Shown here: positions 4,150 through 53,700 of the stretch, one piece after another
How the letters are laid out: the number at the start of each line of letters is the position of its first letter
How positions within the stretch are numbered: the stretch's first letter is position 1
Source: a virus
Taxonomy: Duplodnaviria > Caudoviricetes
IMG/VR virus record: IMGVR_UViG_3300021373_001027
Coordinates: 1,381-65,380 of that record
Reading direction: 5' to 3' (one strand)
DNA: 64,000 bases
Notes under the pieces: generated by a model
Told to the model about the DNA's origin: nothing
Database searches by the model: none
Seen by the model: the letters and a program-made list of their open reading frames with translations, nothing else
Made by a program: the position numbers and the translations under genes

Positions 4150-4166
4150 ACCTACTCCCTATACTT

Positions 4167-4523
4167 TTATTTTCGTCTTAACGTTTGGCTAGCTCTGTAT
4201 ATGTCAGCACGATACGCTTCATAACAGTGGTCGTGCTGCCAGAAAAAGACTATGTTAATTAAGGTACGCATCAGCGCCCAAGGCCAGCTAACTTTACGGG
4301 TTCTGTACGCCCTGCCGCTAAGGGACTCGTTGGGGTTATCGCTTAGAAACACAACCACATTAATTAGCTGTGACAGCGCATCGCCCACACGAACGATGTA
4401 ATTAAAGAGTGACTGCAAGCTTGAAAAGGTCATCAAGCTGATCCTCCGTAAGCCCAAGTGCTGCCCCCAGCGTAGCGACAAGAGCCGATGGGCGATCAAC
4501 CGTAGTTGCATATTCCCATTCAA
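4167..4523 (-). CDS. Conserved small phage protein (true start probably near 4410-4435)
   Basis: DALSQLINVV...NESLSGRAYR...FFWQHDHC pattern common after tail-fibre genes; 5' part overlaps the neighbouring gene. Confidence 0.55.
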   Translation of the reverse strand: MNGNMQLRLIAHRLLSLRWGQHLGLRRISLMTFSSLQSLFNYIVRVGDALSQLINVVVFLSDNPNESLSGRAYRTRKVSWPWALMRTLINIVFFWQHDHCYEAYRADIYRASQTLRRK

Positions 4524-27039: not shown

Positions 27040-27229
27040 TATCTGAGTCCTCATAGTTTCGCGAGAGGTCTTCAATTGCCCTTATTGCGTACTCCAGACC
27101 TCGTATAGAGCCGCAGGATTCTTTATATTCTTCGTAACTATCAAGCGTGCCTTTACTCATGGCTTCTTTTATTCTTTCTTGCTGCTGCTGACAATCAGCG
27201 ATTAGTACTTGAAAAACAGATTTAGACAT
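27032..27229 (-). CDS. Small conserved head-module protein
   Basis: YEEYK..CG.IRGL pattern between portal and GroES-like gene. Confidence 0.6.
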   Translation of the reverse strand: MSKSVFQVLIADCQQQQERIKEAMSKGTLDSYEEYKESCGSIRGLEYAIRAIEDLSRNYEDSDNE

Positions 27230-29672
27230 TATTATTTCCTAGTAGTCCCTGTACCTGTTGGAGACGAAGCCTTGCTCGTTCAAATTCTTCCTCGGAAGCC
27301 AAGGAACGTTGCTCCATTTGATACTTAAGTGCCATTTCTTCCTGTTCAAGCTCAAGTCGTTGTTGCTCAGTAATAGACTTGACCTGATCATTTGTTTCTT
27401 TACGCTGCTGTTCCCGCAACTTAAGTGCCTGATTGTCTTGCTGAGTCTTTTCTTTCAACATCTGCTCACGATCCTTACGAGCCGCGTCTTGTTGTTGAAG
27501 TTGAATGAGCGGGTCTTGCTGCTTAGCTTGGTTTTGCTGAGCCTGCATTTCCTGTTTCTTCTGCTCGGTTATCTGCATAGAGGCATCTGCCAACAGACGA
27601 GAAAGCTGAAGTTCGATTTCTTCAGGCATTTCCTCATCAGGCGGCGGTAACTCAACGCCCATCTTAGCTTCAATCTCAGCCCTGTACTTAAACGCTACGT
27701 GTTCAGTAATGTGCGCTTGCAACGACGACATAATTTGCGGCGTCATTGGGTTTTGACCAATAGCTTGCATGATTTGAGGGTTCTGCATCATGCTTGTATG
27801 GGTGGCGATATGGGCATCGTGATCTTGGTAAACAAACGCTTTGATGGGTTTACCTACCATAGCTGCCATATTCTCACTTACAGGGTCTTTGGGTATGTGA
27901 TCCTCTGTAAGCGGTATGATCTTGTCAGCGTTTTTAATGCCAATCACATCAACCATCTGTCGGTGAAGCTGAGGCAGGTCATAGATTTGCGGAGCGGATT
28001 GCGCCATTTGCATAACAGCTTGATATTGAACAACTTTTTGAGCCATTGTCGCGCTGTTTGGATCACTAACAGGGATCACATCTACCGTAAGGTAGTCAGA
28101 CTTACGTGCTTTCTGCTCACCGGTACTCGGTAAAAAGTCATAGTTGTCTTGCGATCTGTCAGCGATCAAGTCCTTGATCAGCCTGAACTCCTGCTTCATG
28201 GCGTAGTGGACGCGAGACTGAACAGCGGTCATCGGCTTAAGCGTTCGCTCAAGCAGCGCCAGCGTTGTGCCAACCGGTGCGTTTGCTGACATATCAGAAA
28301 TATCTATATCTGAAATAGCGCCAAGCCTTCGACCTTCATTGGTAATCTTGTCCAGCAAAGCCAGCAATGTCTGACTAGGCTCTTTGTAGGGGAGAGGCAT
28401 TAAGTTCTCCCTAAGACTTCCAGAGGTAACATCAACGTCTTTCCACTCGCCGGGGGCAATTGGAGTGTCATCGCCGCGCACCCTCAAGTCTCGGGTTTTT
28501 AGACCCCCCGGCAAGTTAGCTAGTGTACCCGCGTCTACTAGCTGTCGGATTAGACTGGTTCCAGCACGAGCATATCCCCCGATTATGTGGATCAGACCTA
28601 ACCCATAAAAACCAAAACCTTGAGAGTAGACGTAATGGACAAAGTGCTGTCTGCGCTTATAAAGCGTGTCACCTTCTTCCCAGTTACGATAGATAGAAAG
28701 AATCTCATTACTGCTAGTGTCTATGGTAACGATGTAGGGCTTAACTTGATTGTCGTCAGCGTCTATATCATCAAACGCTAAATCAACGTGCACCTCAAAC
28801 AGCGTGTGCCGCCCATCCTCATTAATACTAAACCCGTCTGCTTCCGCCTTCTTCTCATCTATATCCGTTGTATAGGGAGCAGCATCGCCTAAATCAATGT
28901 CTCTATAGAACCCAGACTGCATTAGGCGGTCAACTTCGTTTGTCGTCTTACGCATAATGTGAGTTATACGCTCTGCGTTTTTCAGATTAGACGCACCATA
29001 AGGAACGACGATTTCTTCAGCGGGGACATACATAGCGACTTGTCGTGCGATACTATCGTCATAATAGACTTTCTTAAACGCACTGCCGCTAAGACCTAGA
29101 CTGTAGAGCATCCGTTCATGCTCACTTCGGTACTCATCCATGACCTCAGTAAGCTGATAGTTCATATCGGACTTAACACGTTCCGCAGCTTCTCTTGTGT
29201 CCTTATCTTCAATGCCGATAATTTTTGTCTTTACAGGGCCGCTCGCTGGGAACGTCTCTCCCATTGTTTCCGCTTGAAAACGAATAGCGGCCTCACTTAA
29301 GAGACTGGAGTAAACGCCACAGGCTCCATCCCAAGGTTGTCCACGTTCCTCATGTTTAATTCCTAGCAAGTCTAAACCTTCGACAAAAGTATCCGACCAT
29401 TCTTTTCGGCTAGTTATGTCAGATTCAACATCACCAACAATCTCATCACCCAGCGATTGAAGTACGTCTTCTGAAACAAATGACGCTAAATTAGCATCAA
29501 AAGGAATATTATCAGCCATCATAGTGTCAGGCATTAGCGCAATTTCCATGCCACCGTCGTCCAGAAGGATCGCGTCAGGCGTCTCAATCTCAATCTCAAT
29601 ATCTGCGTCCATCGAAGGCATTAAATCCCCCAGACCCATCGGCGCTTCGTACAAGCCTTTTTCAATAGCCAT
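27222..29672 (-). CDS. Portal protein (P22-like, long C-terminal coiled coil)
   Basis: 816 aa right after TerL; GFYGLGLIH...LVDAGTLANLP; Q/E-rich C-terminal barrel. Confidence 0.85.
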   Translation of the reverse strand: MAIEKGLYEAPMGLGDLMPSMDADIEIEIETPDAILLDDGGMEIALMPDTMMADNIPFDANLASFVSEDVLQSLGDEIVGDVESDITSRKEWSDTFVEGLDLLGIKHEERGQPWDGACGVYSSLLSEAAIRFQAETMGETFPASGPVKTKIIGIEDKDTREAAERVKSDMNYQLTEVMDEYRSEHERMLYSLGLSGSAFKKVYYDDSIARQVAMYVPAEEIVVPYGASNLKNAERITHIMRKTTNEVDRLMQSGFYRDIDLGDAAPYTTDIDEKKAEADGFSINEDGRHTLFEVHVDLAFDDIDADDNQVKPYIVTIDTSSNEILSIYRNWEEGDTLYKRRQHFVHYVYSQGFGFYGLGLIHIIGGYARAGTSLIRQLVDAGTLANLPGGLKTRDLRVRGDDTPIAPGEWKDVDVTSGSLRENLMPLPYKEPSQTLLALLDKITNEGRRLGAISDIDISDMSANAPVGTTLALLERTLKPMTAVQSRVHYAMKQEFRLIKDLIADRSQDNYDFLPSTGEQKARKSDYLTVDVIPVSDPNSATMAQKVVQYQAVMQMAQSAPQIYDLPQLHRQMVDVIGIKNADKIIPLTEDHIPKDPVSENMAAMVGKPIKAFVYQDHDAHIATHTSMMQNPQIMQAIGQNPMTPQIMSSLQAHITEHVAFKYRAEIEAKMGVELPPPDEEMPEEIELQLSRLLADASMQITEQKKQEMQAQQNQAKQQDPLIQLQQQDAARKDREQMLKEKTQQDNQALKLREQQRKETNDQVKSITEQQRLELEQEEMALKYQMEQRSLASEEEFERARLRLQQVQGLLGNNNV

Positions 29673-31222
29673 TAGTAATATCCACCCTTACGCCGTTTAA
29701 AATATTGAGTCTCTTCCGCTTCATCAGTGGGGAGGCGTATAAACCCACCTTGTCGGAAACGCATTAGAGCCATTACGGTTGAATCCACTCGGTCATCGTT
29801 TGACCCAAAAGGAAAGGCAGCGACTTCTTCAACTAGCTCATCTGCCCAACGTGTTTCAGGAACCCACACCATACCCGATGATACTATATCGCTAACAGAA
29901 TTTAACCTTGCCAGCTTGTCACCTGTGCCACGGTGGGGCGTATACTCAGAAACAGGCAACCCTGCTCTACGCATTTCTTGATAAATCGCCGTACCTGCGC
30001 TCTTTTTCTCTACGATAAAGGCGTCGGGTTCCCAGTCTTCATAGTTAGCCATACACATCTGTTTAAGCTCTGGGAACTCGTATCGCTCACAAATACTGTT
30101 TAACAGGATGATATGGTACGCATCTTCTTGATCATTAAAGAACACGCCCCACGTAGTTAACGATGTAAAGTCAGCACGGTTATGTTTTTCGGCGGCGGCG
30201 TCCAACGACATGATGACGTATTCGCAAGAGGGCGGGGACTCGGCTCGCCATCGTTTCCACCAATTACGTTTTATCAGTGCGGCTTCTTCGGCAGTGGGAT
30301 TCTGCTGATACTGGGCGTTCCACTGGAACAACGGCATACTTTCACGCGTGCGGTGTAACGCCTTTAGATCAAAGAACTCAGGCCACAGAGGAACTTCCTG
30401 CTCTTTACCCTTGCGCTTTACGTCAAGAATCGCTGGAAACTCAACAACCTCATACTGGTCAATGTCTTGATTCTTTGCCATATCCTTTGTCAGACGGCCC
30501 GTTAGGTCATCCAAGTGCCAACGTGTGTGTACGATAGCGACTCGACCTCCGGGCATAAGACGGGTTCGTGCGCCAAAACGGAACCAATCGTAGGCTTTGT
30601 CAAAAATTTCATAGTTGCCGTTTAGGATTTCTTGCTCGTTGTGCGGGTCATCGACCAGTAGGAGGTCGGCACCCCGTCCCGCCAACGCTGAACCTACACC
30701 TGTTGCGTAGAACTCACCGCCGTGGTCGGTGTTCCAACGCCCCGCTGATTTAGAATCGGACGCAAGCCCCACATCTTTAAATATCTCTCGGTAAGCATCA
30801 CTGGCTATGATGTTTCGCACCTTTCGGCCAAAGTCCACAGCAAGGTCTGCCGTGTGAGAAATCAGCATAACTTTCTTGTTGGGATTGCGACCCAAGAACC
30901 AAGCGGGGTAATAGGTCGAGGTAAGCTGTGACTTTCCGTGACGAGGGGGCATATTGATGCAAACACGATCTTTCGCACCAGACTCGGTTGCCATGAGCAT
31001 ATCGGCAAGCTTTCGGTGATGCTTACCGACAAGATAATCACTTTGCATGTGCTTACAAAACTCAATCAAATCATCCTTACAGCTTTGTACATAGTCCCTT
31101 CTCTGTAACTCATCAACCATTCGGTTGATTTCTTCTATTTCAGCCTCAGTATACTTATCGAGGTTGTTTAACATTATCTGAAGCTCTAGCTTCGTAAATG
31201 GAAGACCCTCACTCACTGTCAA
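29672..31222 (-). CDS. terL: Terminase large subunit
   Basis: Walker A MPPRHGKS, Walker B LLLVDDP, TRWH, RNase H-like nuclease (SLD, NDDRVDS). Confidence 0.92.
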   Translation of the reverse strand: MTVSEGLPFTKLELQIMLNNLDKYTEAEIEEINRMVDELQRRDYVQSCKDDLIEFCKHMQSDYLVGKHHRKLADMLMATESGAKDRVCINMPPRHGKSQLTSTYYPAWFLGRNPNKKVMLISHTADLAVDFGRKVRNIIASDAYREIFKDVGLASDSKSAGRWNTDHGGEFYATGVGSALAGRGADLLLVDDPHNEQEILNGNYEIFDKAYDWFRFGARTRLMPGGRVAIVHTRWHLDDLTGRLTKDMAKNQDIDQYEVVEFPAILDVKRKGKEQEVPLWPEFFDLKALHRTRESMPLFQWNAQYQQNPTAEEAALIKRNWWKRWRAESPPSCEYVIMSLDAAAEKHNRADFTSLTTWGVFFNDQEDAYHIILLNSICERYEFPELKQMCMANYEDWEPDAFIVEKKSAGTAIYQEMRRAGLPVSEYTPHRGTGDKLARLNSVSDIVSSGMVWVPETRWADELVEEVAAFPFGSNDDRVDSTVMALMRFRQGGFIRLPTDEAEETQYFKRRKGGYY

Positions 31223-31772
31223 TTATAACCGCGTCTTCTATGTCATCTAGCGTTTCATCACCCACTAGCTTGGACAGTTTGCTGCGTAGACTTTCTCGCA
31301 ACTCGTCGCTGGTCTGATGCGTCACGGTTATTTCGCGTTTTTCGGAGAACAGGCCCACATCAGAAATCTTACCTAGCAACTCCAATGCGCGTAACCGCAC
31401 CTTGGCGTCGTCGTGTTCGCTCTCCAGTAACAGTTTGTTGGTAATAAGGTTACGAATCTTCACAGAGTCGGTAACAACTAACCGGCCAAACTCGTCTAAT
31501 ATGTTACCTACGAGTAACACTGAGCTTGGCGTCATCGAACTTAGCCGCTGGTCGTTAACTTCTTTTGAAATTTTCGTCGGGTCTTCGGCGTATTCGTTAG
31601 CCAGTGTCACCGCTAGCTCGTGGTCGGCATCGGTTAAGTTGGCAATGTCCAATCCGTACAGCTCTAAGTGCTGCGCCGTTGCACAGGCGGCGTCGATTCG
31701 CTCTCTTAGGTCTAGATACCCAAGGTCATCAGGTATTTCAACGCCCAGTTCAGGGATTACCTCTAACGTCAT
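31209..31772 (-). CDS. Terminase small subunit-like protein
   Basis: Overlaps TerL start; RLRALELLGK motif. Confidence 0.6.
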   Translation of the reverse strand: MTLEVIPELGVEIPDDLGYLDLRERIDAACATAQHLELYGLDIANLTDADHELAVTLANEYAEDPTKISKEVNDQRLSSMTPSSVLLVGNILDEFGRLVVTDSVKIRNLITNKLLLESEHDDAKVRLRALELLGKISDVGLFSEKREITVTHQTSDELRESLRSKLSKLVGDETLDDIEDAVIIDSE

Positions 31773-31941
31773 ACTAAGTTTTTCGCAGGTTGTTCACCGA
31801 TTCCAGTGAGTATATAGCAAAAATTGTAAAGATAGTAAAGTAGTTAGGAGTCCCATAGGGGGGTACTTCCATATAAGAGGGGGTAGGGGCATCCCCCACC
31901 CCTGCGGAGCAGCTTCTTTCGCGAAAATTTTTATACCCTCT

Positions 31942-32018
31942 GCCAAACTGGCATAGGGTGTACGCCAAACTGGCATAGGGTGTATACCACTGGCGTATAC
32001 CACTGGCATAGGGTGCAC
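31942..32018. repeat. Short direct repeats upstream of terS
   Basis: ACTGGCATAGGGTG x3, with GCCAAACTGG x2 and GTATACCACTGGC x2. Confidence 0.8.
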
Positions 32019-32284
32019 ACTCGCTCTCACCCTCGCCCTCGCCCGATTTGAAAAAATACGTAATCATTCGTCTGGAATAGTAATAGTAGATAGTAGATAC
32101 AAAATTATATATACGCGGGGGTCGGTATACCGTGGGTTCCCCCACGCCCCTTAGATCGGGCTGGAGTCCCTATGCTAACAGGGATACAGTAACAGGTTAG
32201 GATAAAGTCGGAGATGTTGTTGAACTTGATTGGGTATTGTGAGGTAATGGCGTCACTGGCACAGCATAGTGCCAGCGCCTACAA

Positions 32285-32305
32285 AGTTATACACACTGTA
32301 TAACT
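32285..32305. promoter_or_regulatory. Dispersed palindrome, copy 1
   Basis: AGTTATAC-ACACT-GTATAACT, upstream of first early gene. Confidence 0.75.
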
Positions 32306-32331
32306 CGGGCTATTAAATAGAGACTATTACT

Positions 32332-32958
32332 ATGGAAAAGAAAGCAGACAAAATCGTCGTTACAGCAGCGGCGAAGCGTACCATCAAAGCAGTCGCAAAC
32401 GCGTTCACCGATGGTGAAATCGCAATGGTTGATGCCGTCAATAAGGCGCAGTCAAGTGCACAGCGTGGCGCTGATAAGCTGTTAGCAGCAGGTATGACAG
32501 TCAATATGATGTTAATAGATAAGAAGGCGCAGCGCGAGACTGAAATAGAGTTTGGCGGTAGCGTGCTAACAGTACTACACATTAGGCACTTGATCGACGT
32601 TGCAATGGTCGACGGGCTTTGTAAGGCGGGCGGTATATTCGGAGACGCGCACCATAAGGCGTTCAACAAGCCCACAAAGGAACGCACCGTTCAGGAAGCT
32701 AAAGATGCCAAAGCTGTACAGCAGCGCTTGGGAGTGCTAAGAGCGCGGCTTAAGCAGGCAATGGGCGCCACCACCACTAAAACGAGCGAGCCGAAGCAGC
32801 CCGTGTCACCGACCGAGAAACTACTTAAGCAGATCGGTGCGGTTATCAAGTCAATGCAGAAACTTGAAACACCGGAGTTTGATGTGACCGAAGCTTGCAA
32901 GTATGCCATCAAGGCAGGGCTGACAATCGACCCAACGTTCACACTCAACGATAAGTAA
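32332..32958 (+). CDS. Early hypothetical protein
   Basis: 208 aa A/K-rich ORF followed by terminator. Confidence 0.7.
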   Translation: MEKKADKIVVTAAAKRTIKAVANAFTDGEIAMVDAVNKAQSSAQRGADKLLAAGMTVNMMLIDKKAQRETEIEFGGSVLTVLHIRHLIDVAMVDGLCKAGGIFGDAHHKAFNKPTKERTVQEAKDAKAVQQRLGVLRARLKQAMGATTTKTSEPKQPVSPTEKLLKQIGAVIKSMQKLETPEFDVTEACKYAIKAGLTIDPTFTLNDK

Positions 32959-32966
32959 CTACCACT

Positions 32967-32991
32967 AGCCACCTTCGGGTGGCTTTTTTTT
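32967..32991 (+). terminator. Rho-independent terminator
   Basis: AGCCACC-TTCG-GGTGGCT followed by T-run. Confidence 0.85.
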
Positions 32992-33092
32992 CGCCCGCGA
33001 TTCGTGCGGGATTGATGCCAGTATATTAGTGTAGCATGTAGTTTTTGATGGCACGCTCACCGCATCGCAGAACTTTGAAGAGAACGGAGTAC

Positions 33093-33115
33093 AAGTTATA
33101 CACCGTGTATAACTT
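33093..33115. promoter_or_regulatory. Dispersed palindrome, copy 2
   Basis: AAGTTATAC-ACCGT-GTATAACTT. Confidence 0.78.
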
Positions 33116-33162
33116 AATAACGACATGATACCAGTAGATCGTGTAGCATCGTGTAGCTGGGA

Positions 33163-33700
33163 GTTGTAGGTTGTTATCGGTGGTTGTAGGTTGTTATCGG
33201 TTTCGCTTGGTTGTTATCGGTATTGTTACCTTTTTGGGACTTCCCGATAACAAAATACCATTTATAGGAACAGCTCACTAGATCACCCTCAGTGATACTC
33301 ATTACACTTCTAAATGATTGCAGATGGTGAGTAGTAGTAGTAGTAGATTATTCTTTTTTTATTTTGTTATCGTTTTTTATTTATTAACTATTATTGGGGG
33401 ATTCGCTAGACCCCGCTGGAATGCTATCACCCCCAAGCTAACTCCCCCTCACAAGGTAATAGACCCGATAACACGATAACATCGTAACAAATCAATGAAA
33501 TCAAGCACTTACCAAAAAAAACGGTAACAATACAATAACAAACGATAACAAAACGATAACAAAGCCAAAAGGTAACAATACAATCGCCCCCGATAACAAA
33601 CCAATCACGCCCAATAACAATACCCCGCTCACCAAATAACAAAAAGGTAACAAACCAATCACGCCCAATAACAATACAATAAACAGCCAATAACTAAATA
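33163..33700. repeat. Iteron-like repeat field, candidate replication origin
   Basis: GGTTGTTATCGG x3 on the left, about 14 TAACA(A)-core units (often CGATAACAA) on the right, AT-rich core ~33345-33395, exact 30-bp duplication 33594-33623/33648-33677. Confidence 0.65.
33499..33511 (+). promoter_or_regulatory. IHF-binding consensus site
   Basis: AATCAAGCACTTA matches WATCAANNNNTTR exactly, inside the iteron field. Confidence 0.5.
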
Positions 33701-33731
33701 AACTAGGGTTGCTTTACTTGGTTGGTTTTAC

Positions 33732-33760
33732 TTGACTCTAACGTGTTTAAAGCGTATAAT
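33732..33760 (+). promoter_or_regulatory. Sigma70-type early promoter
   Basis: TTGACT-17bp-TATAAT. Confidence 0.85.
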
Positions 33761-33766
33761 GGCTAT

Positions 33767-34250
33767 TCAATGGTAGTAATTTGTGTTTGGACGCGTTGCT
33801 ACCTATGCCGCACGACCCGCTTTGGTTGTGCTGTATGTTGACTGTTATAGAGCTAGCGATAGGGAGTGCGAAGTTATACACCACGTATAACTTTGGTCTG
33901 AAAGCCGTTGCAACCATACATCTTGTGGTCATGCGCGATCCTATCCACCGCCGGTCAGTCAGCCTACAGTTCCAACCGCTGCGGAGACGCACCCAACAAT
34001 CCAAACTAGCCAGTGAATACCGCGACGGGTACTGGCGAACCACGCAGCGAAAGCATATACATCTATCAAGTGTATATGTGAGTTGCGCGTGGAGTGGCTA
34101 TTCGATGAACCCTCCCGAATCCTCTGCACCACCGATCCCTCCGAGTCAGTATCCAATGAGCCTCGCGCCATGCAGCAATGCTGGCGAAAAATACCTGTCC
34201 ACGGTTTCTCAATACCGTGTTGATAAAGCCATAGCAGAAACAGGTTAACA
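33767..34250 (+). ncRNA. Candidate large structured RNA or 5' leader (~480 nt)
   Basis: About 10 stems with G-U pairs and GNRA loops directly after the promoter; no credible RBS-led ORF. Confidence 0.55.
33871..33893. promoter_or_regulatory. Dispersed palindrome, copy 3
   Basis: AAGTTATAC-ACCAC-GTATAACTT, inside the structured RNA. Confidence 0.75.
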
Positions 34251-34266
34251 ATAACGGAGACTTACC

Positions 34267-34491
34267 ATGAATCGACTACGCAAATCCTCGTACCACTACA
34301 GTAACTATTCCCTCCGCACTACGGAGTCTATTCCCAGTGCACCGGTTACACCGTTCAACCCCGAGGCCGAAGGTCGGGTAACAACCCAGACCTACACCGG
34401 CTCACTGGTCAAGGGCATCGCAACGATGCACAAGTCTAACCTGATCCCTGTCACTTCGGGCATCGGGACTAATCCTAAAATCACAAGCTAA
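34267..34491 (+). CDS. Conserved phage hypothetical protein
   Basis: YTGSLVKGIATMHKSNLIPV motif, recalled from T4-like phage hypotheticals; RBS GGAGA. Confidence 0.7.
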   Translation: MNRLRKSSYHYSNYSLRTTESIPSAPVTPFNPEAEGRVTTQTYTGSLVKGIATMHKSNLIPVTSGIGTNPKITS

Positions 34492-34511
34492 GTTATACAC
34501 CGTGTATAACT
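34491..34511. promoter_or_regulatory. Dispersed palindrome, copy 4
   Basis: AGTTATAC-ACCGT-GTATAACT overlapping a TAA stop, just before RBS AAGGAG. Confidence 0.78.
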
Positions 34512-34525
34512 ATTAAGGAGAAAAA

Positions 34526-34873
34526 ATGGGAACAAGAAAAAGAAACATAGCCAACGCGATGTTATCAAGGCCATCGCAGATCGCCACTATTGTTAACAAC
34601 CTGCCTTGTCCACCCGATGCGATCATCGCGCAATCCCGAGACAACATGACAGTGCTAAAAGCTGTGATGCTCTGGGAGTTGTACGATGATTGGTCGTACG
34701 AGTTAGCGTTAAATAACTACGAGCGTCGTTCTCGGCATTACGTTAACGCGGCGTCTGTACTTAGTGACTGGTTAAAGAGTGAGTACAACATCAGACCGCT
34801 TGATGTGTTAATGCCCAACCCTGCACCAATAAACAACCCATTCAAAAAAATCTTTGGAGAAAACCATGACTGA
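34526..34873 (+). CDS. Hypothetical protein
   Basis: Strong RBS TAAGGAG; 115 aa. Confidence 0.65.
   Translation: MGTRKRNIANAMLSRPSQIATIVNNLPCPPDAIIAQSRDNMTVLKAVMLWELYDDWSYELALNNYERRSRHYVNAASVLSDWLKSEYNIRPLDVLMPNPAPINNPFKKIFGENHD
34849..34869 (+). repeat. 21-bp exact repeat spanning RBS and ATG (second copy 36001-36021)
   Basis: AATCTTTGGAGAAAACCATGA precedes both the DUF3150-like and AAA genes. Confidence 0.9.
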
Positions 34874-35768
34874 ACTAAACTTTAACACCCCCGATATTCA
34901 AACGGACGTATCCCTTGCCACTAGCGCGTGCCTTGTAAGCTGGAACGTATCGGCGTGGTCGGGCCGTAAGAAAGACACCAAGGCAGCGGGTAGCCTATCA
35001 ATGGCAACCGGCGCAACCACCAAATCTGTGTCTGTACATAAAAAGCTGATCAGCCTACCTGAGTTTGAAGCCATCAGTAAGCACGTTGGCTGGGTACGCA
35101 ATAACTTTCACTACACTAAGACCTTACCTTGGTCTGATACAGGCTTGCGGTTACTCGCCACCGAGGAGTTGTTCGACTACAAGCCACAAATGGAGGAACA
35201 CGCGCAGGAGTTCGATAGGCTTGTTCGTGAGTTCTTTTCAGTATACCTAGACGCGATCAACCGAGGTCGTAACGAGTTAGGTACGCTGTTTGACGAGACG
35301 CAGTACCCTACGCTGGACGAGCTTGCTAGTAAGTTCTCATGGCGTACGACGTTTATCCCTGTACCTACGAGTAATGACTTCCGCATTGATGTATCCCAAG
35401 TGCAGAAAGATAGCTTGGCGAGTGAGTACGAGGACTTCTATCAAGCTGAGATGAAGCGTGCAATGGATACCGTGTGGGTAGACTTGCATACGTCACTGGT
35501 AGAGCTAAGCCAGAAGCTTGACTTTGAAGCGGCTGGTAAGAAAAACAAGTTGTTTGCATCACGGCTGGATACCATACGCCAGCTAACCCGATTGCTGGGG
35601 TCATGTAACTTTACCAACGATCCCAAAATGTCTGCTATGCAGCGCAAACTGGCATCAGCGTTTGACGGCTTGACGGTGGAGCAGCTTCGCCACAGTGATT
35701 CATTGCGTGTCGAGACTAAAGCTGAGCTTGACGATGCTATCCGACAGCTTCCTAGTTTGGACTTCTAA
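34866..35768 (+). CDS. DUF3150-like protein
   Basis: SAWSGRKKD...TLPW...YP...KF pattern; upstream of AAA+VWA pair; start re-called at ATG after GGAGA. Confidence 0.55.
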   Translation: MTELNFNTPDIQTDVSLATSACLVSWNVSAWSGRKKDTKAAGSLSMATGATTKSVSVHKKLISLPEFEAISKHVGWVRNNFHYTKTLPWSDTGLRLLATEELFDYKPQMEEHAQEFDRLVREFFSVYLDAINRGRNELGTLFDETQYPTLDELASKFSWRTTFIPVPTSNDFRIDVSQVQKDSLASEYEDFYQAEMKRAMDTVWVDLHTSLVELSQKLDFEAAGKKNKLFASRLDTIRQLTRLLGSCNFTNDPKMSAMQRKLASAFDGLTVEQLRHSDSLRVETKAELDDAIRQLPSLDF

Positions 35769-38899: not shown

Positions 38900-38919
38900 A
38901 GTTATACAGGAGGTATAAC
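38900..38919. promoter_or_regulatory. Dispersed palindrome, copy 7 (AGGAG in the loop)
   Basis: AGTTATAC-AGGAG-GTATAAC, ATG at 38922. Confidence 0.75.
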
Positions 38920-47552: not shown

Positions 47553-47601
47553 CCTGACCCCCGCCCCTGCTATGTGAGCGGGGGCATATTTGGAGACACA
47601 C

Positions 47602-50439
47602 ATGATCGCTTTAGATTTCTTTAAGGCGGTGCTGGGGGACTCTGGTTGGTATTGCGCGTTTAGTAAAGACCCAATAGTGCAAAAGTTCTATACAACAATA
47701 GAAGAACTTGACCACGTAACTAAACAGTTTAGCCAGAACAACAAAGATTCCTACTTCGCACTAGCTACATTTAAAAACGGGGACTCAAGGGAAAGCATCA
47801 ATGCCCTACAGATTAAGTCTTTCTTTGTAGACATTGACGCAGACCACGGAGCCATACGCTACGATAATAAACAGGAGGCCGTTTCAGAGTTAAGAGGTTT
47901 CTGTAAAGCTTTTGCTTTACCCAAGCCTGTCATTGTAGATTCGGGTGGAGGGATTCACGCTTATTGGATTCTTGATGAGCCTGTCTCAATGGACGAGTGG
48001 AAGCCGGTAGCTCTCAGCTTTCGGCAAGCTTGTATTGATCACGGTCTACGCATTGATCCTAAAGTCACAGGTGACGGCGGCAGGGTGTTAAGGACACCCA
48101 ATACGTATAACACTAGGTCAGATACGTATAGCAAGTTTTTAAGTGACACTGTTAACTACATACCCTTTTCCCTGTTTGCTGATAAGTTCGATACAGCGCC
48201 CGCGCCGGTACTGGTATCAAACAACATTGACCAAGCAGACAGCGCTTTGCTTAACTTACTGCAAAGTAACGTACAGGGTAGCTTCACCAAAATAGAAGAA
48301 AAGAACGAAGCCGGTGAAGGTTGTGCACAGCTAGACTACATACTCAAGCACCAAGACGAAGTTAGCGAACCGCTTTGGCGTGCAGGGTTGTCTATTGTAA
48401 AGTTTTGTGACGAGTACGATGAGGTAATGCATCGTATGTCAGAAAATCACCCTGAGTATGATGCGGGTGAAACTGAGTACAAGTTATCAAGAATCAAAGG
48501 CCCGTACAGGTGTAGCTCTTTTGAAGAAGAACGCCCTGAAGGTTGCGAAGGTTGTCCCCATAAAGGGCAGATAAACACCCCTTGGTCGCTGGGCATGAAG
48601 ATAGCTGAAGCCGAGGGCGAGGAAGTTGTCTCTGATTTGTTTGACGACCAAATAAGCTATGTGATTCCTGAGTACCCTAAACCCTACTTTAGAGGATTGA
48701 ACGGTGGCATATATATCCGTTCACAAACTCTAGCCGACGACGAGCCTGAAGAACGTTTGGTTTACCATAATGACTTATATGTAACCCGAAGAATACGTGA
48801 CCCAGAACTAGGCGAGTCTATTATTGTTACCTTAATTTTACCCCAAGATGGTAAAAAAGAGTTTGTATTACCGTTGACCGCTGCAACGTCACGCGAAGAA
48901 TTTAGAAAAGCTATGTCCCATCACGGCGTAGTTATGATGAAAATGGAAAACCTTATGGCCTATATACAGAAGTGGGTGGAGGAACTGCAATTGAAAAGCA
49001 AAGCTGATGAATCTAGGCGACAGTTTGGTTGGACTAAGAATTTAGAAGGTTTTGTAGTCGGGGCCGAAGAAATTACCAAAGACGAGATACTGATAAACCA
49101 CCCTTCGCCACCCACAGCTAGATTCTTTCCAGCGTTTGAACCTAAAGGCTCTTACGAGGACTGGCAAGTGATGATCGAAACTTACAATCGCCCTGATCTT
49201 GATGTGCACCAATTCTGTTTAGCCTTCTGTCTAGGATCGCCTCTGTTTGAGTTTATACCGAAGATTCAAGGCGGCGGTGTCCATTTGTTCAGTGGTGATA
49301 GCGGGTTTGGCAAAACGTCTGTCATGGACGCAGGGAACTCTATTTGGGGTGGCCCTAGCTTGCGAATTAAGGGCAAGGATACAGGCAACTTTACAATGAA
49401 CAGAGCAGAGATATGGAAAAACCTACCTTTGCTGATAGATGAAGTAGGAGATGTACCACCTCACGAACTAAGCGCACTCGCTATGGTTATGACGGACGGT
49501 GAGCAGAAAGGTCGAATGTCTAGCGGGGCCAATCAAGAGCGCATTAGGGGTGAGCCTTGGTCGCTAGGTGTAATGACCAACGGTAACAATAGCTTTATTG
49601 AACGTGTTTCTACCTTTAAGAACGTACCGCGTGCTGAAGCGCAGAGGATTCTAGAGTGGGAATGCGACGGTGTTAACTTCAATAAAAATGCTGAAGGGGG
49701 AGAAGAATCGGACAGGTTCAACGACCTTCTTGAGAAGAACTACGGGTGGGCTGGCCCGATATTCATTAGATATATATTAAGTAACAAGGAAGAAGTACAG
49801 AAACTTGTTACCAAGACGAGTCAAGTGCTTAACAAAAAGCTAAGGTTGGCAGTGCAAAATAGGGTTTGGAAAGCCAACCTAACCGTTGCAATTGCTGCGA
49901 ATATCATAGCTAACCGCCTTGGCATCTGGACATTCGATACCAATTTAATGCTGGCTACGAGTGCCAAAATCGTTAAGTATAATCGTGAAAAAGTGGTGAC
50001 AATTACCCGCAATGCAACAGAAACGTTGAACGAGTATGTGGCAGAGAATATACGTAATATATATATCATTAACAGCAAGAAGGATTTACGTAAGCAAGGC
50101 ATTCACAACAACGCATTGGACAGCTTGGTAAAGACCGTTGACCCTTACAAAGTGGTAGGTCGGCTAGAGCCTGATACTGAAATGCTGTACTTAGCCGTTA
50201 GTCCTCTACGCAAATGGTGCTTGGATCAAAGAGTGAATTACTCTGAGTTAGATCGTGACCTGTGCCGAAACCATAACGCCTATAGAAAGAACAAGCGCCT
50301 ATTGGCGGGACACAATCTTGACACCGGCCCAGTAAAAGCTCTATGGGTTAACGTTAAGGATATTCTAGACTTGGAAGATGAAGATGCACTACGTGAACTG
50401 GAAAAAATAGCAAGCCTAACAGAAGATGAAAACGATTAA
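47602..50439 (+). CDS. Primase-helicase (RepB/AEP-like primase, Cys cluster, DUF927-like ATPase)
   Basis: VDID, SGGGIHAYW, RVLR.P, CxxCPH, Walker A GDSGFGKT, LLIDE; start re-called at ATG after GGAGA. Confidence 0.8.
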   Translation: MIALDFFKAVLGDSGWYCAFSKDPIVQKFYTTIEELDHVTKQFSQNNKDSYFALATFKNGDSRESINALQIKSFFVDIDADHGAIRYDNKQEAVSELRGFCKAFALPKPVIVDSGGGIHAYWILDEPVSMDEWKPVALSFRQACIDHGLRIDPKVTGDGGRVLRTPNTYNTRSDTYSKFLSDTVNYIPFSLFADKFDTAPAPVLVSNNIDQADSALLNLLQSNVQGSFTKIEEKNEAGEGCAQLDYILKHQDEVSEPLWRAGLSIVKFCDEYDEVMHRMSENHPEYDAGETEYKLSRIKGPYRCSSFEEERPEGCEGCPHKGQINTPWSLGMKIAEAEGEEVVSDLFDDQISYVIPEYPKPYFRGLNGGIYIRSQTLADDEPEERLVYHNDLYVTRRIRDPELGESIIVTLILPQDGKKEFVLPLTAATSREEFRKAMSHHGVVMMKMENLMAYIQKWVEELQLKSKADESRRQFGWTKNLEGFVVGAEEITKDEILINHPSPPTARFFPAFEPKGSYEDWQVMIETYNRPDLDVHQFCLAFCLGSPLFEFIPKIQGGGVHLFSGDSGFGKTSVMDAGNSIWGGPSLRIKGKDTGNFTMNRAEIWKNLPLLIDEVGDVPPHELSALAMVMTDGEQKGRMSSGANQERIRGEPWSLGVMTNGNNSFIERVSTFKNVPRAEAQRILEWECDGVNFNKNAEGGEESDRFNDLLEKNYGWAGPIFIRYILSNKEEVQKLVTKTSQVLNKKLRLAVQNRVWKANLTVAIAANIIANRLGIWTFDTNLMLATSAKIVKYNREKVVTITRNATETLNEYVAENIRNIYIINSKKDLRKQGIHNNALDSLVKTVDPYKVVGRLEPDTEMLYLAVSPLRKWCLDQRVNYSELDRDLCRNHNAYRKNKRLLAGHNLDTGPVKALWVNVKDILDLEDEDALRELEKIASLTEDEND

Positions 50440-50643: not shown

Positions 50644-50715
50644 ACCGCTTTTGTCATGGGGAGCGGTTATTCATGGTAGTCTCCTTACTTTGCCCCCTAC
50701 TTAGGGGGCTTTTTT
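50644..50715 (+). ncRNA. Candidate trans-acting small RNA antisense to early-gene translation starts
   Basis: Promoter, 5' hairpin, core TATTCATGGTAGTCTCCTTA, terminator; core complementary to 34252-34272, 36008-36023, 34856-34869, 37165-37182. Confidence 0.6.
50692..50715 (+). terminator. Rho-independent terminator at the convergence of the two arms
   Basis: GCCCCCTA-CT-TAGGGGGC followed by T6. Confidence 0.8.
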
Positions 50716-53700
50716 ATAGCTCCAAGGCTGACTTAGCAAGTTCCGCTTCAGTTTTGTCCCTGTATCGTATACCCATAACTCTATCTTCAACGGCCTTCAT
50801 TCTAGCTCTAAATGATCGGTCAAAGGTTCCGTTTTCGCCAAGCTTAATTGCAAACTTAGAGTTTGCTGGTAACGACTTGTTAAACTCTACAGCTTCCTTA
50901 AGCTCATCGGCGTAACCTGCACCGTCACCAACGCGGTACGCAAGCCAAGCTCTCTTTAAGATCAATGATCTTCGTTCTGCTCGGTTACCTTCTATGTACT
51001 TCTGGTTAGATATAAACCTCTGAGACTCTGTGACTTCTGTAGGTGCAAAGCCAATAACTTGCCCGAACAACGATAGCACTCCGAAATCATCGGTGATCAT
51101 ATCCCCGCTAGTGGTTTTAGCTCCATCCGATCTGTACCTGTTAGCTTTAAGCGCGTTGCTAATTGCAGGGGGCAATATAGCTTCCCACATTCTTCCCCAA
51201 TCACCTCTCTGATAAGAACTGTAGCCTCTTGGAATACGCGATACGGTTCCCCATACAGGGCCAAGCGCTAAGGTAGCGTACAGTTCGGCGGGTGTTTGAT
51301 CGTAGTTACGGTTGCTGCGGTAGAGCATATCCGTAAGTGCAATCCTGTCGGCAACGTTTACACCCAAAAGACTATTCACAACACCAGACGATGCACCAAT
51401 GCCAATTCGCTTACGTAGCATGTTATCAAAATCGTCTTCTTCACCATCACTTAAAAACAAATTGTAAAGAGCAGCAAAAATACCCATCAGCGGGATGCCT
51501 CTTACTCCCGCAAACGCAGCCGATGCGAGGTAGACGTTAAATATCTGATCCCTCGCTGCCTTCCTAATCTCAGGGGTTTCTCCCGCTAGCATATCCTTTG
51601 CCATCTTAAACTGTAGATACATCATGCGTGAGCCATAGCTCTTATACATAAAGGCCATTGACATTAGCGGTTTTTGCCCAAAGCGCGTGTTAGACAAGGT
51701 GGACATTGCACCGTTCACCATCTGACTATCACTAATGGCATCTAGCGCGGCCTTCTCGTAATCTATCTTATCTCCCGCCTTCCTTTGATCCTCCAACCTA
51801 AACCTATAGCTGGCTAGAATCGTAGCTTCCCTTCGCACTCGTTCACTGCTTGACATGAGTGAACCCATTAAGTTGTTCAAAACAGACATGAATCTGTTTT
51901 CACCTGTCATTTCGCCGCTGTCTGATCTAAGTGCAAGTTGGTGAACTTGGCCGTATTGTCGCATGGCCTCAACAAGCGGTCTTAGTTCTCGCGAGTTTTT
52001 ATCGTTACCGCTTAAGTCCATATTAACCAGCGAATACCACGCCCCTATCTTACGCGTATCTCTTTCTCCAAGACCTTTTTCTTTAATCTCTTTGTCGCTA
52101 AGCCCTTTAGTGGTGTAGCTTTCCACCGAGGTCTTAAACGGCGTACTCATAACGTCTTTTACAGCTTTTAAAACGGCCTTATTGGTTTCCACAATGCCTC
52201 TGTCAAACTTAGAATTAAGATGCGGGGCAATAACCATCGGTAACGCAAAGGTATCAATAAGCGCTGAAGATACGTTCAAGCCCAGAGTCCAACCATACGC
52301 CGCTGTCTTAGCATAGTTAGCCATGTCCGTTACGGTTCCCGTAATAGGGTTACGTGCTAGTGCTATTCTCTTTTTCAGTTCTTCGCCTATGATTAGCTTT
52401 CTTTCGTTTTCTGCACTGTTGTTATCCGATGCAATAATCTTCATTTCAGCATCAAGCTCAGCTTCAGTTCTAGAAAGCTCATCCCTCATCTTCATGCTGT
52501 TTATCTTTCTTGCAAGATCAGTCAACGAAGACTCATAGACCTTAACAACATCATTGTTGTATCCAGCTTTACCTGTACGTTTCTTTAACGCATTCAATAC
52601 AGTTCTTTGCGGAGCGGCTTCGATAGCTGTTCGTATAAGTTCTTCTTTGATTGCCTCAGTTTCAGGTGTATCGCCTAACCTGTTAATAAGCTGTAAACTT
52701 TTACCCACAAAGCTGTAAGGTATTCTATCGCCAGTCAGGTAGTCCGTTAGCTTTGTGGGTGTTCTGATAAGGTCAACCTGTGCTGGTTCTAGCAGGTTTT
52801 CTTTAAGAAACTCTACACGCGCATCCCGTTCGGTTGAGCTAGTGAACATCTCAAACGCATCTCTCGTCTTGCCGTCTGCGTCAGTAAAAGTGAAAGACAG
52901 AAGATAATCACCTCTACGCTGCAAAGGGAAGTATCCTTCAAGCGCGTTGTTCTTAAAGTGTTCGTACAATTCGCTGTATATCTTACTACCCGTCTCAGGG
53001 TCAATCGCCCCCAATGCCACCTCTAACTGCTTAAGCAGGTCTTGATACATGCGGTCATAGTTAGACCTAACCTTATTGTATTCAAGCTGCCCTCCGTTGT
53101 CCTTCAAGCGATTCCATACAGGTTCTAGCTTTTCGTATGCCGCTTTCTGTTCACCTCTGTACTCATTCTTAGCTTTTCTAAAGTCAATCTGAGCCAAAGT
53201 GCCGTCCAGTAAAACCTGCTTTAAATCGCTTAAAGCTTCAGTGTTTTGCTTTCCCCACACTTGCAAGTCTTTTGCAGCAGTTTCCGCAATTGCTTGCTGA
53301 TCGCCATACAACCGACCTTCGTACTCACTGATTGTCGTAAGTATGCGATCAGCCGACTTAAAGCTATCCTTAGCTGTATCAACGACTAAAGATAACTGTA
53401 AAGAACCTAGCATGGGGCCGAGGCTTGCATTGCTAAGCCTTCTAAGTGCACTCATCCCAACGGCTTTTGTTGTTGAGCCTCCATCGAACAACCCAAGCAC
53501 TTTATTGTTGTCAGTGAGCAAGTTATAAACTTTACCAGTAGCAGCGGTGGCGCTGGGAGCAAGCAACTGTTCCATTGTATCGTTAAGGTCACGACGCGTT
53601 GCTACGTTTCCAAACAAACGTTTTATTGCGTCTGTCAAGCGTTGAAACATACTTTGTCGTTGCTTATCACTAGGTAGCATGAAGCTGAGTTCCCTGCGAA

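What the first reader, a model, noticed from the sequence alone, without database searches (positions are those of the whole stretch)
33163..33700. Two-sided iteron field with AT-rich core and IHF site: likely replication origin
Seen: reverse-oriented TTGTTATCGG units on the left and about 14 forward TAACA(A)-core units on the right of a GTA-repeat plus T-rich tract, an exact 30-bp duplication, and a perfect IHF consensus (33499-33511). Inference: binding array for the primase-helicase or another initiator; IHF suggests a proteobacterial host. A packaging or terminus role is an alternative.
Basis: partly seen in the sequence, partly recalled or inferred. Interest (0 to 1): 0.5.

Follow-up and report, generated by a model that had tools for sequence, protein, structure and literature searches.

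The report
Probable replication origin of marine phage
A 540-base stretch of repeated short DNA words arranged back-to-back around the most A+T-rich spot of this phage genome is most likely where the phage starts copying its DNA, a familiar kind of origin not described before for this group of marine phages.

Summary
19 of the window's 104 RTAACA words, and 10 of its 11 CGATAACA words, lie in 33100-33720. There are 4 on the minus strand to the left and 13 on the plus strand to the right of the genome's most AT-rich 60-mer (33336-33395, 85% AT). The exact 30-bp duplication and a perfect IHF consensus are also present.

The layout recurs in every relative I could reach. The close relatives L001 and L005 carry the same iteron. 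Three distant relatives, G001, G002 and G004, carry a different iteron (GAACAWTR) with the same outward polarity. Each of these three has a perfect IHF consensus inside its array. In G002, G004 and the window a near-consensus sigma-70 promoter follows the right arm.

The phage's 949-aa primase-helicase matches the SaPIbov1 Rep helicase in sequence. Its C-terminal domain models as a winged helix closest to the origin-binding domain of that Rep (Z 9.6). Five distant family members carry mixed-orientation iteron arrays just downstream of the gene, as SaPIs do.

Best reading: a SaPI/P4-style origin for a self-loading primase-helicase, placed 14 kb from its gene. Confidence is about 0.65. A packaging site or a promoter-control array is not excluded, because no termini or replication data exist. 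This is a new member of a known kind, of moderate interest.

The parts
33093..33115 (.). Left flanking palindrome AAGTTATAC-N5-GTATAACTT. It is one of 5 such palindromes in the window and is probably the operator of a separate early regulator, not an iteron.
   Evidence: 5 matches against 0.34 expected; the arms are invariant and the centre varies in the relatives.
33138..33157 (+). Direct repeat ATCGTGTAGC x2. Together with GATRCCAGTA words at 33014 and 33128 it forms left-flank repeats that also occur in the relatives.
   Evidence: (D12). GAYRCCAGT-type repeats lie left of the arrays in G002 and G001.
33163..33232 (-). Left iteron arm. Three 20-bp units GTTGTAGGTTGTTATCGGNN (cores 33171-79, 33191-99, 33211-19) plus a GGTAACAAT variant at 33223-31. 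All read away from the centre.
   Evidence: 100% conserved in L001 and L005.
33245..33253 (+). A single inward-facing CGATAACAA on the left side.
   Evidence: Conserved in L001 and L005.
33331..33395 (.). (GTA)5 followed by a T-rich tract, with one minus-strand iteron at 33364-72. Candidate DNA unwinding element.
   Evidence: the 60-mer at 33336 is the most AT-rich in the genome (85% against 76.7% for the next). AT-rich tracts also lie between the arms in G002 (83%) and G004 (83%).
33396..33425 (.). Conserved G+C-rich block GGGGGATTCGCTAGACCCCGCTGGAATGC next to the AT tract.
   Evidence: nearly invariant in the three-way alignment.
33466..33674 (+). Right iteron arm of 13 sites (CGATAACAA, CAATAACAA and GGTAACAA variants), all reading away from the centre. 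The innermost three sit at 8-bp spacing. Includes the exact 30-bp duplication at 33594-33623 and 33648-33677.
   Evidence: Iteron cores are 156 of 169 positions identical to L001, against 285 of 369 for non-core positions (Fisher p = 1.1e-5).
33499..33511 (+). IHF consensus AATCAAGCACTTA between the inner triplet and the rest of the right arm.
   Evidence: The only perfect consensus held for G001 (6 kb) and G002 (2.4 kb), and the two overlapping opposite-strand ones for G004 (1.5 kb), lie inside the arrays. L001 and L005 have one mismatch.
33732..33760 (+). Near-consensus sigma-70 promoter (TTGACT-17-TATAAT) firing away from the array into the early genes.
   Evidence: 11 of 12 positions. An equivalent TTGACA-17-TATAAT lies about 38 bp after the last iteron in G002, and a similar one in G004.
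47590..50439 (+). The 949-aa primase plus DUF927 (SF3) helicase plus C-terminal winged helix (residues about 807-928 = 50008-50373). Candidate initiator that binds the iterons.
   Evidence: DUF927, primase PHROGs. (PDB 8tch_A, E 9.8e-5). (model pLDDT 84.9; Z 9.6 to the SaPIbov1 Rep C-terminal domain).

Best explanation
The array is the phage's origin of replication. It is of the type used by self-loading primase-helicases such as SaPI Rep/PriRep and P4 alpha.

Shown here: two arms of a 9-bp iteron (CGATAACAA and close variants) point outward from the genome's most AT-rich tract. A perfect IHF consensus lies in the right arm. A near-consensus sigma-70 promoter starts about 40-60 bp beyond the right arm and fires away from it. 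The whole layout recurs in related phages with a lineage-specific iteron word. The phage also encodes a primase-SF3 helicase whose modelled C-terminal winged helix is closest to the origin-binding domain of SaPIbov1 Rep.

Inferred: the winged helices of primase-helicase hexamers bind the iterons, one hexamer per arm, with the tightly spaced inner triplets engaged first. IHF bends the right arm. Negative supercoiling behind RNA polymerase leaving the early promoter helps to open the T-rich tract at 33347-33395. The two helicase rings load there and the fused primase starts synthesis in both directions. The surplus right-arm sites may titrate the initiator or damp the early promoter.
For: 1. Enrichment and polarity of the iterons.

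2. The centre of the array is the most AT-rich 60-mer of the genome.

3. Exact CGATAACAA occurs 9 times in the window. Eight copies lie in the array and one elsewhere (60822). It is therefore a one-locus cis site, unlike the palindromic operator, which occurs at 5 early intergenic places.

4. Recurrence: all 4 lineages whose DNA reached this place have the layout. These are the window with L001 and L005 (same iteron), G001 (10 of 13 GAACAWTR matches in 265 bp, 5 minus then 5 plus), G002 (9 of 13 in 346 bp, 4 minus then 5 plus) and G004 (9 of 15 in 350 bp, 4 minus then 5 plus). Against L001, iteron cores are more conserved than spacers (92.3% against 77.2%, p = 1.1e-5).

5. Initiator: DUF927 and primase domains. 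The helicase core matches SaPIbov1 Rep 8tch_A at E 9.8e-5. The C-terminal model (pLDDT 84.9, alignment of 100 sequences) aligns best to residues 453-556 of 8tch_A (Z 9.6, rmsd 2.8 A, 93 residues). SCCmec Cch follows at Z 8.7, while generic winged helices score 5.2 or less.

6. In SaPIs the origin is two oppositely oriented iteron sets around an AT-rich region, bound by the Rep C-terminal winged helix (passages read in PMC9371898, and bioRxiv 10.64898/2026.10.17.759575).

7. Family link: a scan for two-sided 7-mer arrays covered 159 loci around family members plus the window (1.79 Mb). It hit the window and 5 loci. In 4 of those 5 (L144, L123, L137, L159) the array starts about 10-300 bp after the stop codon of the primase-helicase or helicase reading frame. 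A 6,989-bp Salmonella plasmid has about 10 GGTAACA words, in mixed orientation, starting 27 bp after the stop of its DUF927 gene.

8. IHF assists opening at the iteron origins of pSC101 and R6K, and transcription pointing away from an origin adds negative supercoiling to it (passages in PMC5043065).
Against: There is no direct evidence of initiation here. The array lies 14 kb from the primase-helicase gene, whereas SaPI origins lie immediately downstream of rep.

Cumulative GC skew has its minimum at 34-35 kb. This coincides with the switch from minus-strand to plus-strand genes, so it is not independent evidence.

The arms are unequal (4-6 sites against 13). Helical phasing is loose. G001 lacks a marked AT-rich centre between its arms.

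The right arm abuts the early promoter in the window, G002 and G004, which also fits a transcriptional role. The G004 contig ends inside its left arm. The G002 contig ends about 230 bp to the left of its array, but those two ends overlap by about 149 nt and so look like a circular assembly cut at a repeat.

Binding of the winged helix to the iterons is inferred from fold and family context only. The C-terminal profile did not detect the C-termini of the distant members that carry adjacent arrays.
Confidence: 0.65

Rival explanations
1. The array controls the early promoter. It would be a bank of sites for a phage or host DNA-binding protein that silences or activates the sigma-70 promoter at 33732-33760, with IHF as an architectural factor, as in the phage Mu operator region.
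For: The right arm ends about 40-60 bp upstream of a near-consensus promoter in the window, G002 and G004. The array sits at the boundary between late and early genes. The IHF consensus recurs across lineages.
Against: The iteron word is confined to one locus: 8 of the 9 exact copies in the window lie in the array. A separate palindrome already marks the early intergenic regions at 5 places. Outward-facing arms around the genome's most AT-rich tract are not needed for promoter control. Related primase-helicase genes carry such arrays directly downstream of the gene, not upstream of promoters. The two functions do not exclude each other.
Confidence: 0.17
2. The array is the packaging recognition site (pac or cos). 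The small terminase subunit would bind the repeated words on both sides of a central cleavage region with help from IHF, as recalled for P1 pac and lambda cosB.
For: Two-sided short repeats with an IHF site also describe P1 pac (recalled, not read here). The array lies within 1.4 kb of the terminase operon. The G004 contig ends in its left arm.
Against: A gene (32332-32958) and its terminator (32967-32990) separate the array from the TerS-like gene. A second conserved non-coding region with its own repeats lies directly upstream of that TerS-like gene at 31773-32331 and is the more usual place for pac. The genome assembly and the two close relatives' contigs break at three different places. 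Logan contigs of three runs run straight through the array. The link to primase-helicase genes in elements where no terminase is nearby does not fit. P1-type GATC hexamers are absent from the iterons.
Confidence: 0.1
3. The array is a partition or centromere-like site, or a decoy that titrates a host protein.
For: Clustered short repeats with an IHF site also occur in plasmid centromeres such as P1 parS (recalled).
Against: None of the 20 neighbouring proteins scanned, all between 27222 and 56968, matched a ParA, ParB or integrase family. The 'putative integrase' labels are on primase homologues. There are no DnaA boxes. The AT-rich centre has no role in this model.
Confidence: 0.04

Closest known systems
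SaPI origins of replication (SaPIbov1, SaPI1, SaPI5) with Rep/PriRep self-loading helicases
   Same: Short iterons in two oppositely oriented sets around an AT-rich region. The initiator is an SF3/DUF927-type helicase, fused to a primase in SaPI5, with a C-terminal winged helix. The window's protein matches SaPIbov1 Rep in sequence (E 9.8e-5) and its C-terminal model matches the Rep C-terminal domain (Z 9.6). The inner iterons are closely spaced at 8-9 bp.
   Different: SaPI origins have 6-12 iterons of 5-6 nt and lie immediately downstream of rep (PMC9371898, passage). Here there are 19 sites of about 9 nt, with unequal arms, 14 kb upstream of the gene. They sit in a 65-kb marine phage rather than a satellite, and come with a recurring IHF consensus and an abutting early promoter.
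Phage P4 ori and crr with the alpha primase-helicase (recalled, not read here)
   Same: A multifunctional primase-helicase with a C-terminal DNA-binding domain recognises short repeated octamers in both orientations. The origin is not adjacent to the gene.
   Different: P4 needs a second cis site (crr). No second cluster of the iteron exists here: the one exact copy outside the array is isolated. The iteron word is different.
Iteron origins of theta plasmids (pSC101, R6K gamma, RK2) and of phage lambda
   Same: Initiator-binding repeats beside an AT-rich unwinding element. IHF is an accessory factor in pSC101 and R6K. Nearby transcription helps opening (PMC5043065, passages).
   Different: Those use 17-22 bp direct repeats in one orientation, Rep or O initiators that recruit the host DnaB, and usually DnaA boxes. 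Here the arms are inverted, there are no DnaA boxes, and no Rep/O-type initiator was found among the 20 proteins scanned.
P1 pac site and lambda cosB (recalled)
   Same: Short repeats on two sides of a central region, with an IHF site.
   Different: Those lie in or next to the small terminase gene and direct cleavage. Here the array is separated from the terminase operon by a gene and a terminator, and it tracks the primase-helicase family.

Membership tests
SaPI-type origin for a self-loading Rep/PriRep helicase | Short iterons in two sets of opposite orientation on either side of an AT-rich region | tested here: met
   4 minus-strand sites on the left and 13 plus-strand sites on the right of the genome's most AT-rich 60-mer. 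The same polarity is seen in G001, G002 and G004.
SaPI-type origin for a self-loading Rep/PriRep helicase | The element encodes an SF3-type helicase initiator with a C-terminal winged-helix domain | tested here: met
   DUF927 at 1.4e-21. 8tch_A at E 9.8e-5 over residues 484-824. The C-terminal model scores Z 9.6, rmsd 2.8 A, 93 residues against 8tch_A residues 453-556. This rests on a predicted structure, not a solved one.
SaPI-type origin for a self-loading Rep/PriRep helicase | The origin lies immediately downstream of the rep reading frame | tested here: not met
   The array at 33163-33700 is about 14 kb upstream of the gene at 47590-50439. No array lies within 10 kb of the gene in the 79 IMG/VR loci. 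The feature is met in the distant members L144, L123, L137, L159 and L177.
SaPI-type origin for a self-loading Rep/PriRep helicase | 6-12 iterons of 5-6 nt | tested here: not met
   19 sites with a 9-nt consensus and a 6-nt RTAACA core.
SaPI-type origin for a self-loading Rep/PriRep helicase | The Rep C-terminal domain binds the iterons specifically and melts the origin without ATP | not testable with these tools
   Needs EMSA, footprinting and KMnO4 probing. No protein-DNA predictor was available.
Theta-plasmid or lambda iteron origin | Tandem direct repeats of 17-22 bp in one orientation | tested here: not met
   The arms are inverted and the core is 9 bp. Only parts of the right arm show a 21-22 bp period.
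Theta-plasmid or lambda iteron origin | DnaA boxes in or beside the origin | tested here: not met
   No TTATCCACA in the window. TTWTNCACA occurs once in the window and not within 32900-34300.
Theta-plasmid or lambda iteron origin | A Rep (WH1-WH2) or lambda O-type initiator gene | tested here: inconclusive
   None of the 20 proteins scanned against Pfam and PHROGs matched one. Several small early proteins have no family at all.
Theta-plasmid or lambda iteron origin | An AT-rich unwinding element and an IHF site | tested here: met
Terminase recognition site (P1 pac or lambda cosB type) | Lies within or directly beside the small terminase gene | tested here: not met
   It is separated from the TerS-like gene (31209-31772) by 31773-32331, the gene at 32332-32958 and a terminator.
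Terminase recognition site (P1 pac or lambda cosB type) | Virion DNA ends or a pac cleavage series map at the site | not testable with these tools
   Only Logan contigs held the phage. The one raw-read run laid 5 reads, all at a low-complexity spot.

The most novel reading that the evidence does not exclude
The array is a combined origin and early-transcription switch shared by a whole family of marine phages. The SaPI-type self-loading primase-helicase would load at outward-facing iterons whose opening is driven by the abutting early promoter and IHF. As the initiator accumulates on the 13 right-arm sites it would shut that promoter, tying the start of replication to the end of early transcription. 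The GTAAC-type core also appears next to distant family members (Salmonella plasmid L177 GGTAACA, Clostridium contig L144 GTAACCA), which would then point to a conserved winged-helix recognition code.
Probability: 0.2. Interest if true: 0.55.

Novelty: new member of a known kind. Interest (0 to 1): 0.38.

Why it matters
Origins are mapped for very few phages outside the model systems. Marine phages of this group, which have almost no isolate relatives in GenBank, have none. If correct, this gives a concrete and testable origin-initiator pair. It would extend the self-loading primase-helicase mechanism studied in staphylococcal satellites to large marine phages. It also shows the origin can sit far from its initiator gene, coupled to IHF and an early promoter. 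In practice it gives a landmark for annotating these genomes and a candidate minimal replicon.

Tried and rejected
Searches that found nothing useful:
- blastn of 32900-34300 against GenBank phages: no match.
- tblastn of the 208-aa neighbour: no match.
- Rfam over 32000-35500: no hit. No tRNA genes.
- P0007 in IMG/VR: nothing.

The 208-aa protein beside the array has only 3 relatives in the big protein collection. Its AF2 model has pLDDT 68.7, and Foldseek found no match at E <= 0.001 in PDB or BFVD. Its role stays open.

Sequencing runs: no RNA holder was listed. The laid runs X1-X3 were contigs, and raw run X21 gave 5 spurious reads, so nothing was learned about termini or coverage.

The iteron-pair pattern search in IMG/VR returned one unrelated tandem repeat, L004, which I rejected as chance.

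The CTD alignment A4 was too diverse for a locus scan, so I replaced it with the 10-sequence full-length alignment A5.

Around the 79 IMG/VR primase loci no two-sided array lies within 10 kb of the gene. The arrays of this phage group lie further upstream.

G003 and G005 had no MoxR match, so their arrays could not be looked for.

The CTD profile did not detect the C-termini of L144, L137, L159 or L123. BLASTP against the L177 protein aligned the helicase core only. The shared GTAAC core may therefore be coincidence.

Plasmid pTAO100 (L176) also carries repM, so it is uninformative.

Phage Rollin (primase-helicase 24.6% identical) has a loosely similar non-coding region, but the record has a run of N and sparse annotation. 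I did not use it as evidence.

GC skew is confounded by gene orientation. There are no DnaA boxes, and helical phasing is weak.

Foldseek alone gave no match at E <= 0.001 for the CTD model. The Z-scores come from the VIA second look at Foldseek's own list.

Full report
SETTING. The window is bases 1381-65380 of a single 65,380-bp phage contig. Near-identical sequence occurs in seawater, marine and oyster metagenomes from at least 15 studies.

Late and structural genes occupy the minus strand up to 31772. They include the portal (27222-29672), the large terminase (29672-31222) and a 187-aa TerS-like protein (31209-31772). Early and replication genes run on the plus strand from 34267 to about 50900. 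They include a MoxR-like ATPase, a VWA protein, a DNA polymerase, a PD-(D/E)XK nuclease, an SNF2 helicase and a 949-aa primase/DUF927 helicase.

Between the two blocks, from left to right, lie:
- a non-coding stretch at 31773-32331;
- a 208-aa orphan gene at 32332-32958 with a clear terminator at 32967-32990;
- a 1.3-kb non-coding stretch at 32959-34266 that holds the finding.

GenBank phages have no DNA match. The only protein relatives there are distant: the primase-helicase is at best 24.6% identical, and the polymerase and large terminase 44-48%.

THE OBSERVATION.
- 19 of the window's 104 RTAACA words and 10 of its 11 CGATAACA words fall in 33100-33720. The expectation for 620 bp is 0.83.
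- Four sites on the minus strand form the left arm. Thirteen on the plus strand form the right arm. CGATAACAA therefore reads outward from the centre on both sides. One site (33245) faces inward, and one (33364) sits inside the AT tract.
- The centre holds (GTA)5 and a T-rich tract. The 60-mer starting at 33336 is the most AT-rich in the whole genome (85% against 76.7% for the next).
- The 30-bp duplication is exact, and the IHF consensus is exact.
- The IHF consensus occurs 7 times in the window, so this one match means little by itself. Helical phasing is loose. There are no DnaA boxes.
- The reading frames that cross the array (53, 87 and 57 aa) are made of the repeats themselves. I do not regard them as genes.

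COMPARISON WITH RELATIVES. Two close relatives were found through the neighbouring proteins. These are an IMG/VR contig of 64,692 bp (L001, L002, L009) and a metagenome contig of 65,046 bp (L005).

Their intergenic region aligns with the window at 90% mean column identity. It keeps both arms, the AT tract, a G+C-rich block and the promoter. Within 33163-33700, iteron cores are identical to L001 at 156 of 169 positions. Other positions are identical at 285 of 369 (Fisher p = 1.1e-5). One right-arm iteron is replaced in the relatives by a copy of the early-region palindrome.

Distant relatives were reached through an alignment of primase-helicases. 597 of 618 candidate stretches in IMG/VR were confirmed, and 79 loci were kept. 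Five long records were searched for the MoxR gene that lies 2.3 kb right of the array. Three had it: G001, G002 and G004. G003 and G005 are 57-65% complete and did not.

All three carry a two-armed array upstream of their early genes, with a different word, GAACAWTR:
- G001: 10 of 13 genome-wide matches lie within 265 bp, 5 minus then 5 plus.
- G002: 9 of 13 within 346 bp, 4 minus then 5 plus.
- G004: 9 of 15 within 350 bp, 4 minus then 5 plus, where the contig ends.

Polarity is outward, as in the window. An AT-rich tract (83% AT) lies between the arms in G002 and G004, less clearly in G001. The only perfect IHF consensus in the DNA held for G001 (6 kb) and G002 (2.4 kb), and the two overlapping opposite-strand ones in G004 (1.5 kb), lie inside the arrays. 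In L001 and L005 the corresponding words have one mismatch. A TTGACA-17-TATAAT promoter follows the right arm by about 38 bp in G002 and similarly in G004.

The element is therefore a composite that recurs across a family of phages. Its repeat word changes between lineages (TTGTTATCG, ATTGTTCG, AATGTTC) while its geometry stays the same.

THE CANDIDATE BINDER. The 949-aa protein has primase PHROG matches in its N-terminal part and DUF927 at residues 373-644. Against all PDB sequences its best match is 8tch_A, at E 9.8e-5, with residues 484-824 aligned to 159-484 of the chain. The structure search lists 8tch_A as the SaPIbov1 initiation protein with helicase activity.

The last 170 residues have 103 homologues at E <= 0.001 in the representative library. 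Most of them sit at the C-terminus of proteins of about 930-995 aa. A model built on 100 of these sequences has mean pLDDT 84.9 and a beta-beta-alpha-alpha-beta-beta core.

Foldseek gave no significant match. The VIA re-alignment of Foldseek's list gave these results:
- SaPIbov1 Rep residues 453-556: Z 9.6, rmsd 2.8 A, 93 residues.
- SCCmec Cch residues 443-550: Z 8.7.
- An oriT-binding winged helix of pCW3: Z 8.5.
- Generic winged helices (HSF, ETS): Z 5.2 or less.

Passages read in PMC9371898 and in bioRxiv 10.64898/2026.10.17.759575 describe SaPI origins. They say the origin has 6-12 penta- or hexanucleotide iterons immediately downstream of rep. About half lie on each side of an AT-rich region, pointing in opposite directions. 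They are bound by the winged helix of the Rep C-terminal domain, presumably with one hexamer per side. The geometry in the window is the same.

A LINK BETWEEN THE PROTEIN FAMILY AND SUCH ARRAYS. I scanned 159 loci around family members (79 from IMG/VR, 80 from bacterial genome contigs) plus the window, 1.79 Mb in all. The scan looked for an exact 7-mer with at least 3 copies in one orientation followed by at least 3 in the other within 700 bp, tolerating one stray copy per side. It hit the window and 5 loci.

One hit, L109, is a G+C-rich word that I take for chance. In the other four the array begins about 10-300 bp after the stop codon of the primase-helicase or helicase reading frame. These are L144 (GTAACCA, centre 88% AT), L123 (TGGAACA), L137 (GAACCTC) and L159 (CGACATA). 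phmmer confirms the primase and/or helicase domains of those frames.

A 6,989-bp Salmonella plasmid has an 895-aa DUF927 protein as its only large gene. About 10 GGTAACA words, in mixed orientation, start 27 bp after that gene's stop.

The family is thus repeatedly accompanied by mixed-orientation iteron arrays in the SaPI position. In this marine phage group the array has moved to the boundary between late and early genes. The GTAAC core shared by the window, L144 and L177 is suggestive. However, the C-terminal domains are not alignable, so I treat it as a lead only.

MECHANISM. My best account is a self-loading origin. Winged helices of the primase-helicase bind the outward-facing iterons on both arms. 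The inner triplets at 8-9 bp spacing would take consecutive subunits of one ring, as in the PriRep5 structure described. IHF bends the right arm. The T-rich tract at 33347-33395 opens, two rings load, and the fused primase starts synthesis.

The early promoter fires away from the array. It would add negative supercoils behind the polymerase, which is known to help origins open. IHF is a co-factor at the pSC101 and R6K origins (passages in PMC5043065). All of these steps are inferred. What is shown is the geometry, its recurrence across lineages, the single-locus distribution of the word, and the nature of the protein.

RIVALS.

Promoter control. This fits the position next to the early promoter. 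It does not explain the AT-rich centre, the outward arms, the single locus, or the arrays downstream of primase-helicase genes elsewhere. It could coexist with origin function.

Packaging site. This fits the two-sided repeats with IHF and the nearness of the terminase genes. Against it:
- The array is cut off from the TerS-like gene by a gene and a terminator.
- A separate conserved non-coding region with its own repeats lies directly upstream of that gene.
- Contigs from three metagenomes cross the array without a break but all break at 31955-31971.
- The genome assembly and the two close relatives' contigs are cut at three different places, as circular or permuted genomes are.
- G002's ends overlap by about 149 nt, so it is a circular assembly cut at a repeat.
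- G004 does end inside its left arm, which I cannot explain beyond assembly at repeats.

No read-end data could be obtained.

GC skew. The skew has its minimum at 34-35 kb. It follows gene orientation throughout, so it decides nothing.

VERDICT. This is a new member of a known kind of origin, with some unusual features: its distance from the initiator gene, 19 sites, the IHF site and the coupled promoter. Confidence in the origin reading is about 0.65.

Noticed in passing
window 33765-34266 (+): A roughly 500-nt conserved non-coding leader lies downstream of the strong early promoter. Indels that are not multiples of three (for example 1 and 8 nt) against L001 and L005 break the 155-aa open frame at 33781-34248. 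RNAalifold predicts 136 pairs (-138.5 kcal/mol), 6 of them with changes on both sides. There is no Rfam match. It is absent from G002 and G004, whose first early gene follows the promoter closely.
   Followed up: partly
window 32286-32304, 33095-33113, 33873-33891, 34492-34510, 38901-38919: The palindrome GTTATAC-N5-GTATAAC occurs 5 times, all on the plus strand in early intergenic DNA (0.34 expected). Three copies sit 3-28 nt before start codons. The arms are invariant and the centre varies in the relatives. Other lineages appear to have their own palindrome (G002 GTTATAAC-N4-GTTATAAC, G001 TTAGTC-N6-GACTAA; read by eye). It is probably the operator of an early regulator, or an RNA hairpin.
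   Followed up: partly
window 31773-32331: A non-coding region lies between the TerS-like gene and the 208-aa gene. It has G-runs and 20-bp direct repeats (CCAAACTGGCATAGGGTGTA x2 plus TACCACTGGC units). The repeats are replaced by other sequence in L005. Logan contigs of three runs all break at 31955-31971. It is a candidate late promoter or pac region and a variable patch.
   Followed up: partly
genome bases 1-120 (outside the window, upstream of window base 1): The contig starts inside a 9-bp tandem repeat (about 14 copies; 27 copies of the word genome-wide). The deposited start is therefore probably an assembly cut in a repeat, not a genome end.
   Followed up: no
window 33011-33043 and 33126-33157; L092 144-330; L091 about 4000-4230: Two to three repeats containing RYGCCAGT lie between the upstream terminator and the left iteron arm, in the window and in G001 and G002. 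Their function is unknown. The G002 circular assembly is cut at one of them.
   Followed up: no
L091 about 3690-3990 (G001): An HNH-endonuclease-like reading frame sits next to the left iteron arm in G001 only, judged by eye from the sequence. It may be a homing insertion beside the array.
   Followed up: no
window 32332-32958 (+): The 208-aa Lys/Ala-rich orphan protein next to the array has its own palindrome upstream and a terminator downstream. It has only 3 relatives in the large protein collection, and a homologue sits at the same place in G002. There is no fold match. It is 70% identical in L001, while the iterons are unchanged.
   Followed up: partly
L007 1-1455 (Pseudomonas phage Rollin, OR577172.1): A distant phage with a related primase-helicase has a non-coding region holding four AAAAGGTAGYAASTTRCTACCTTTT palindromes, TATGCAA words in both orientations and an (ATA)n AT-rich tract. 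It may be an analogous control and origin region.
   Followed up: partly
window 50714-56968 (-): A 2084-aa protein has a DarB-like antirestriction PHROG match in its C-terminal part (8.1e-36).
   Followed up: no
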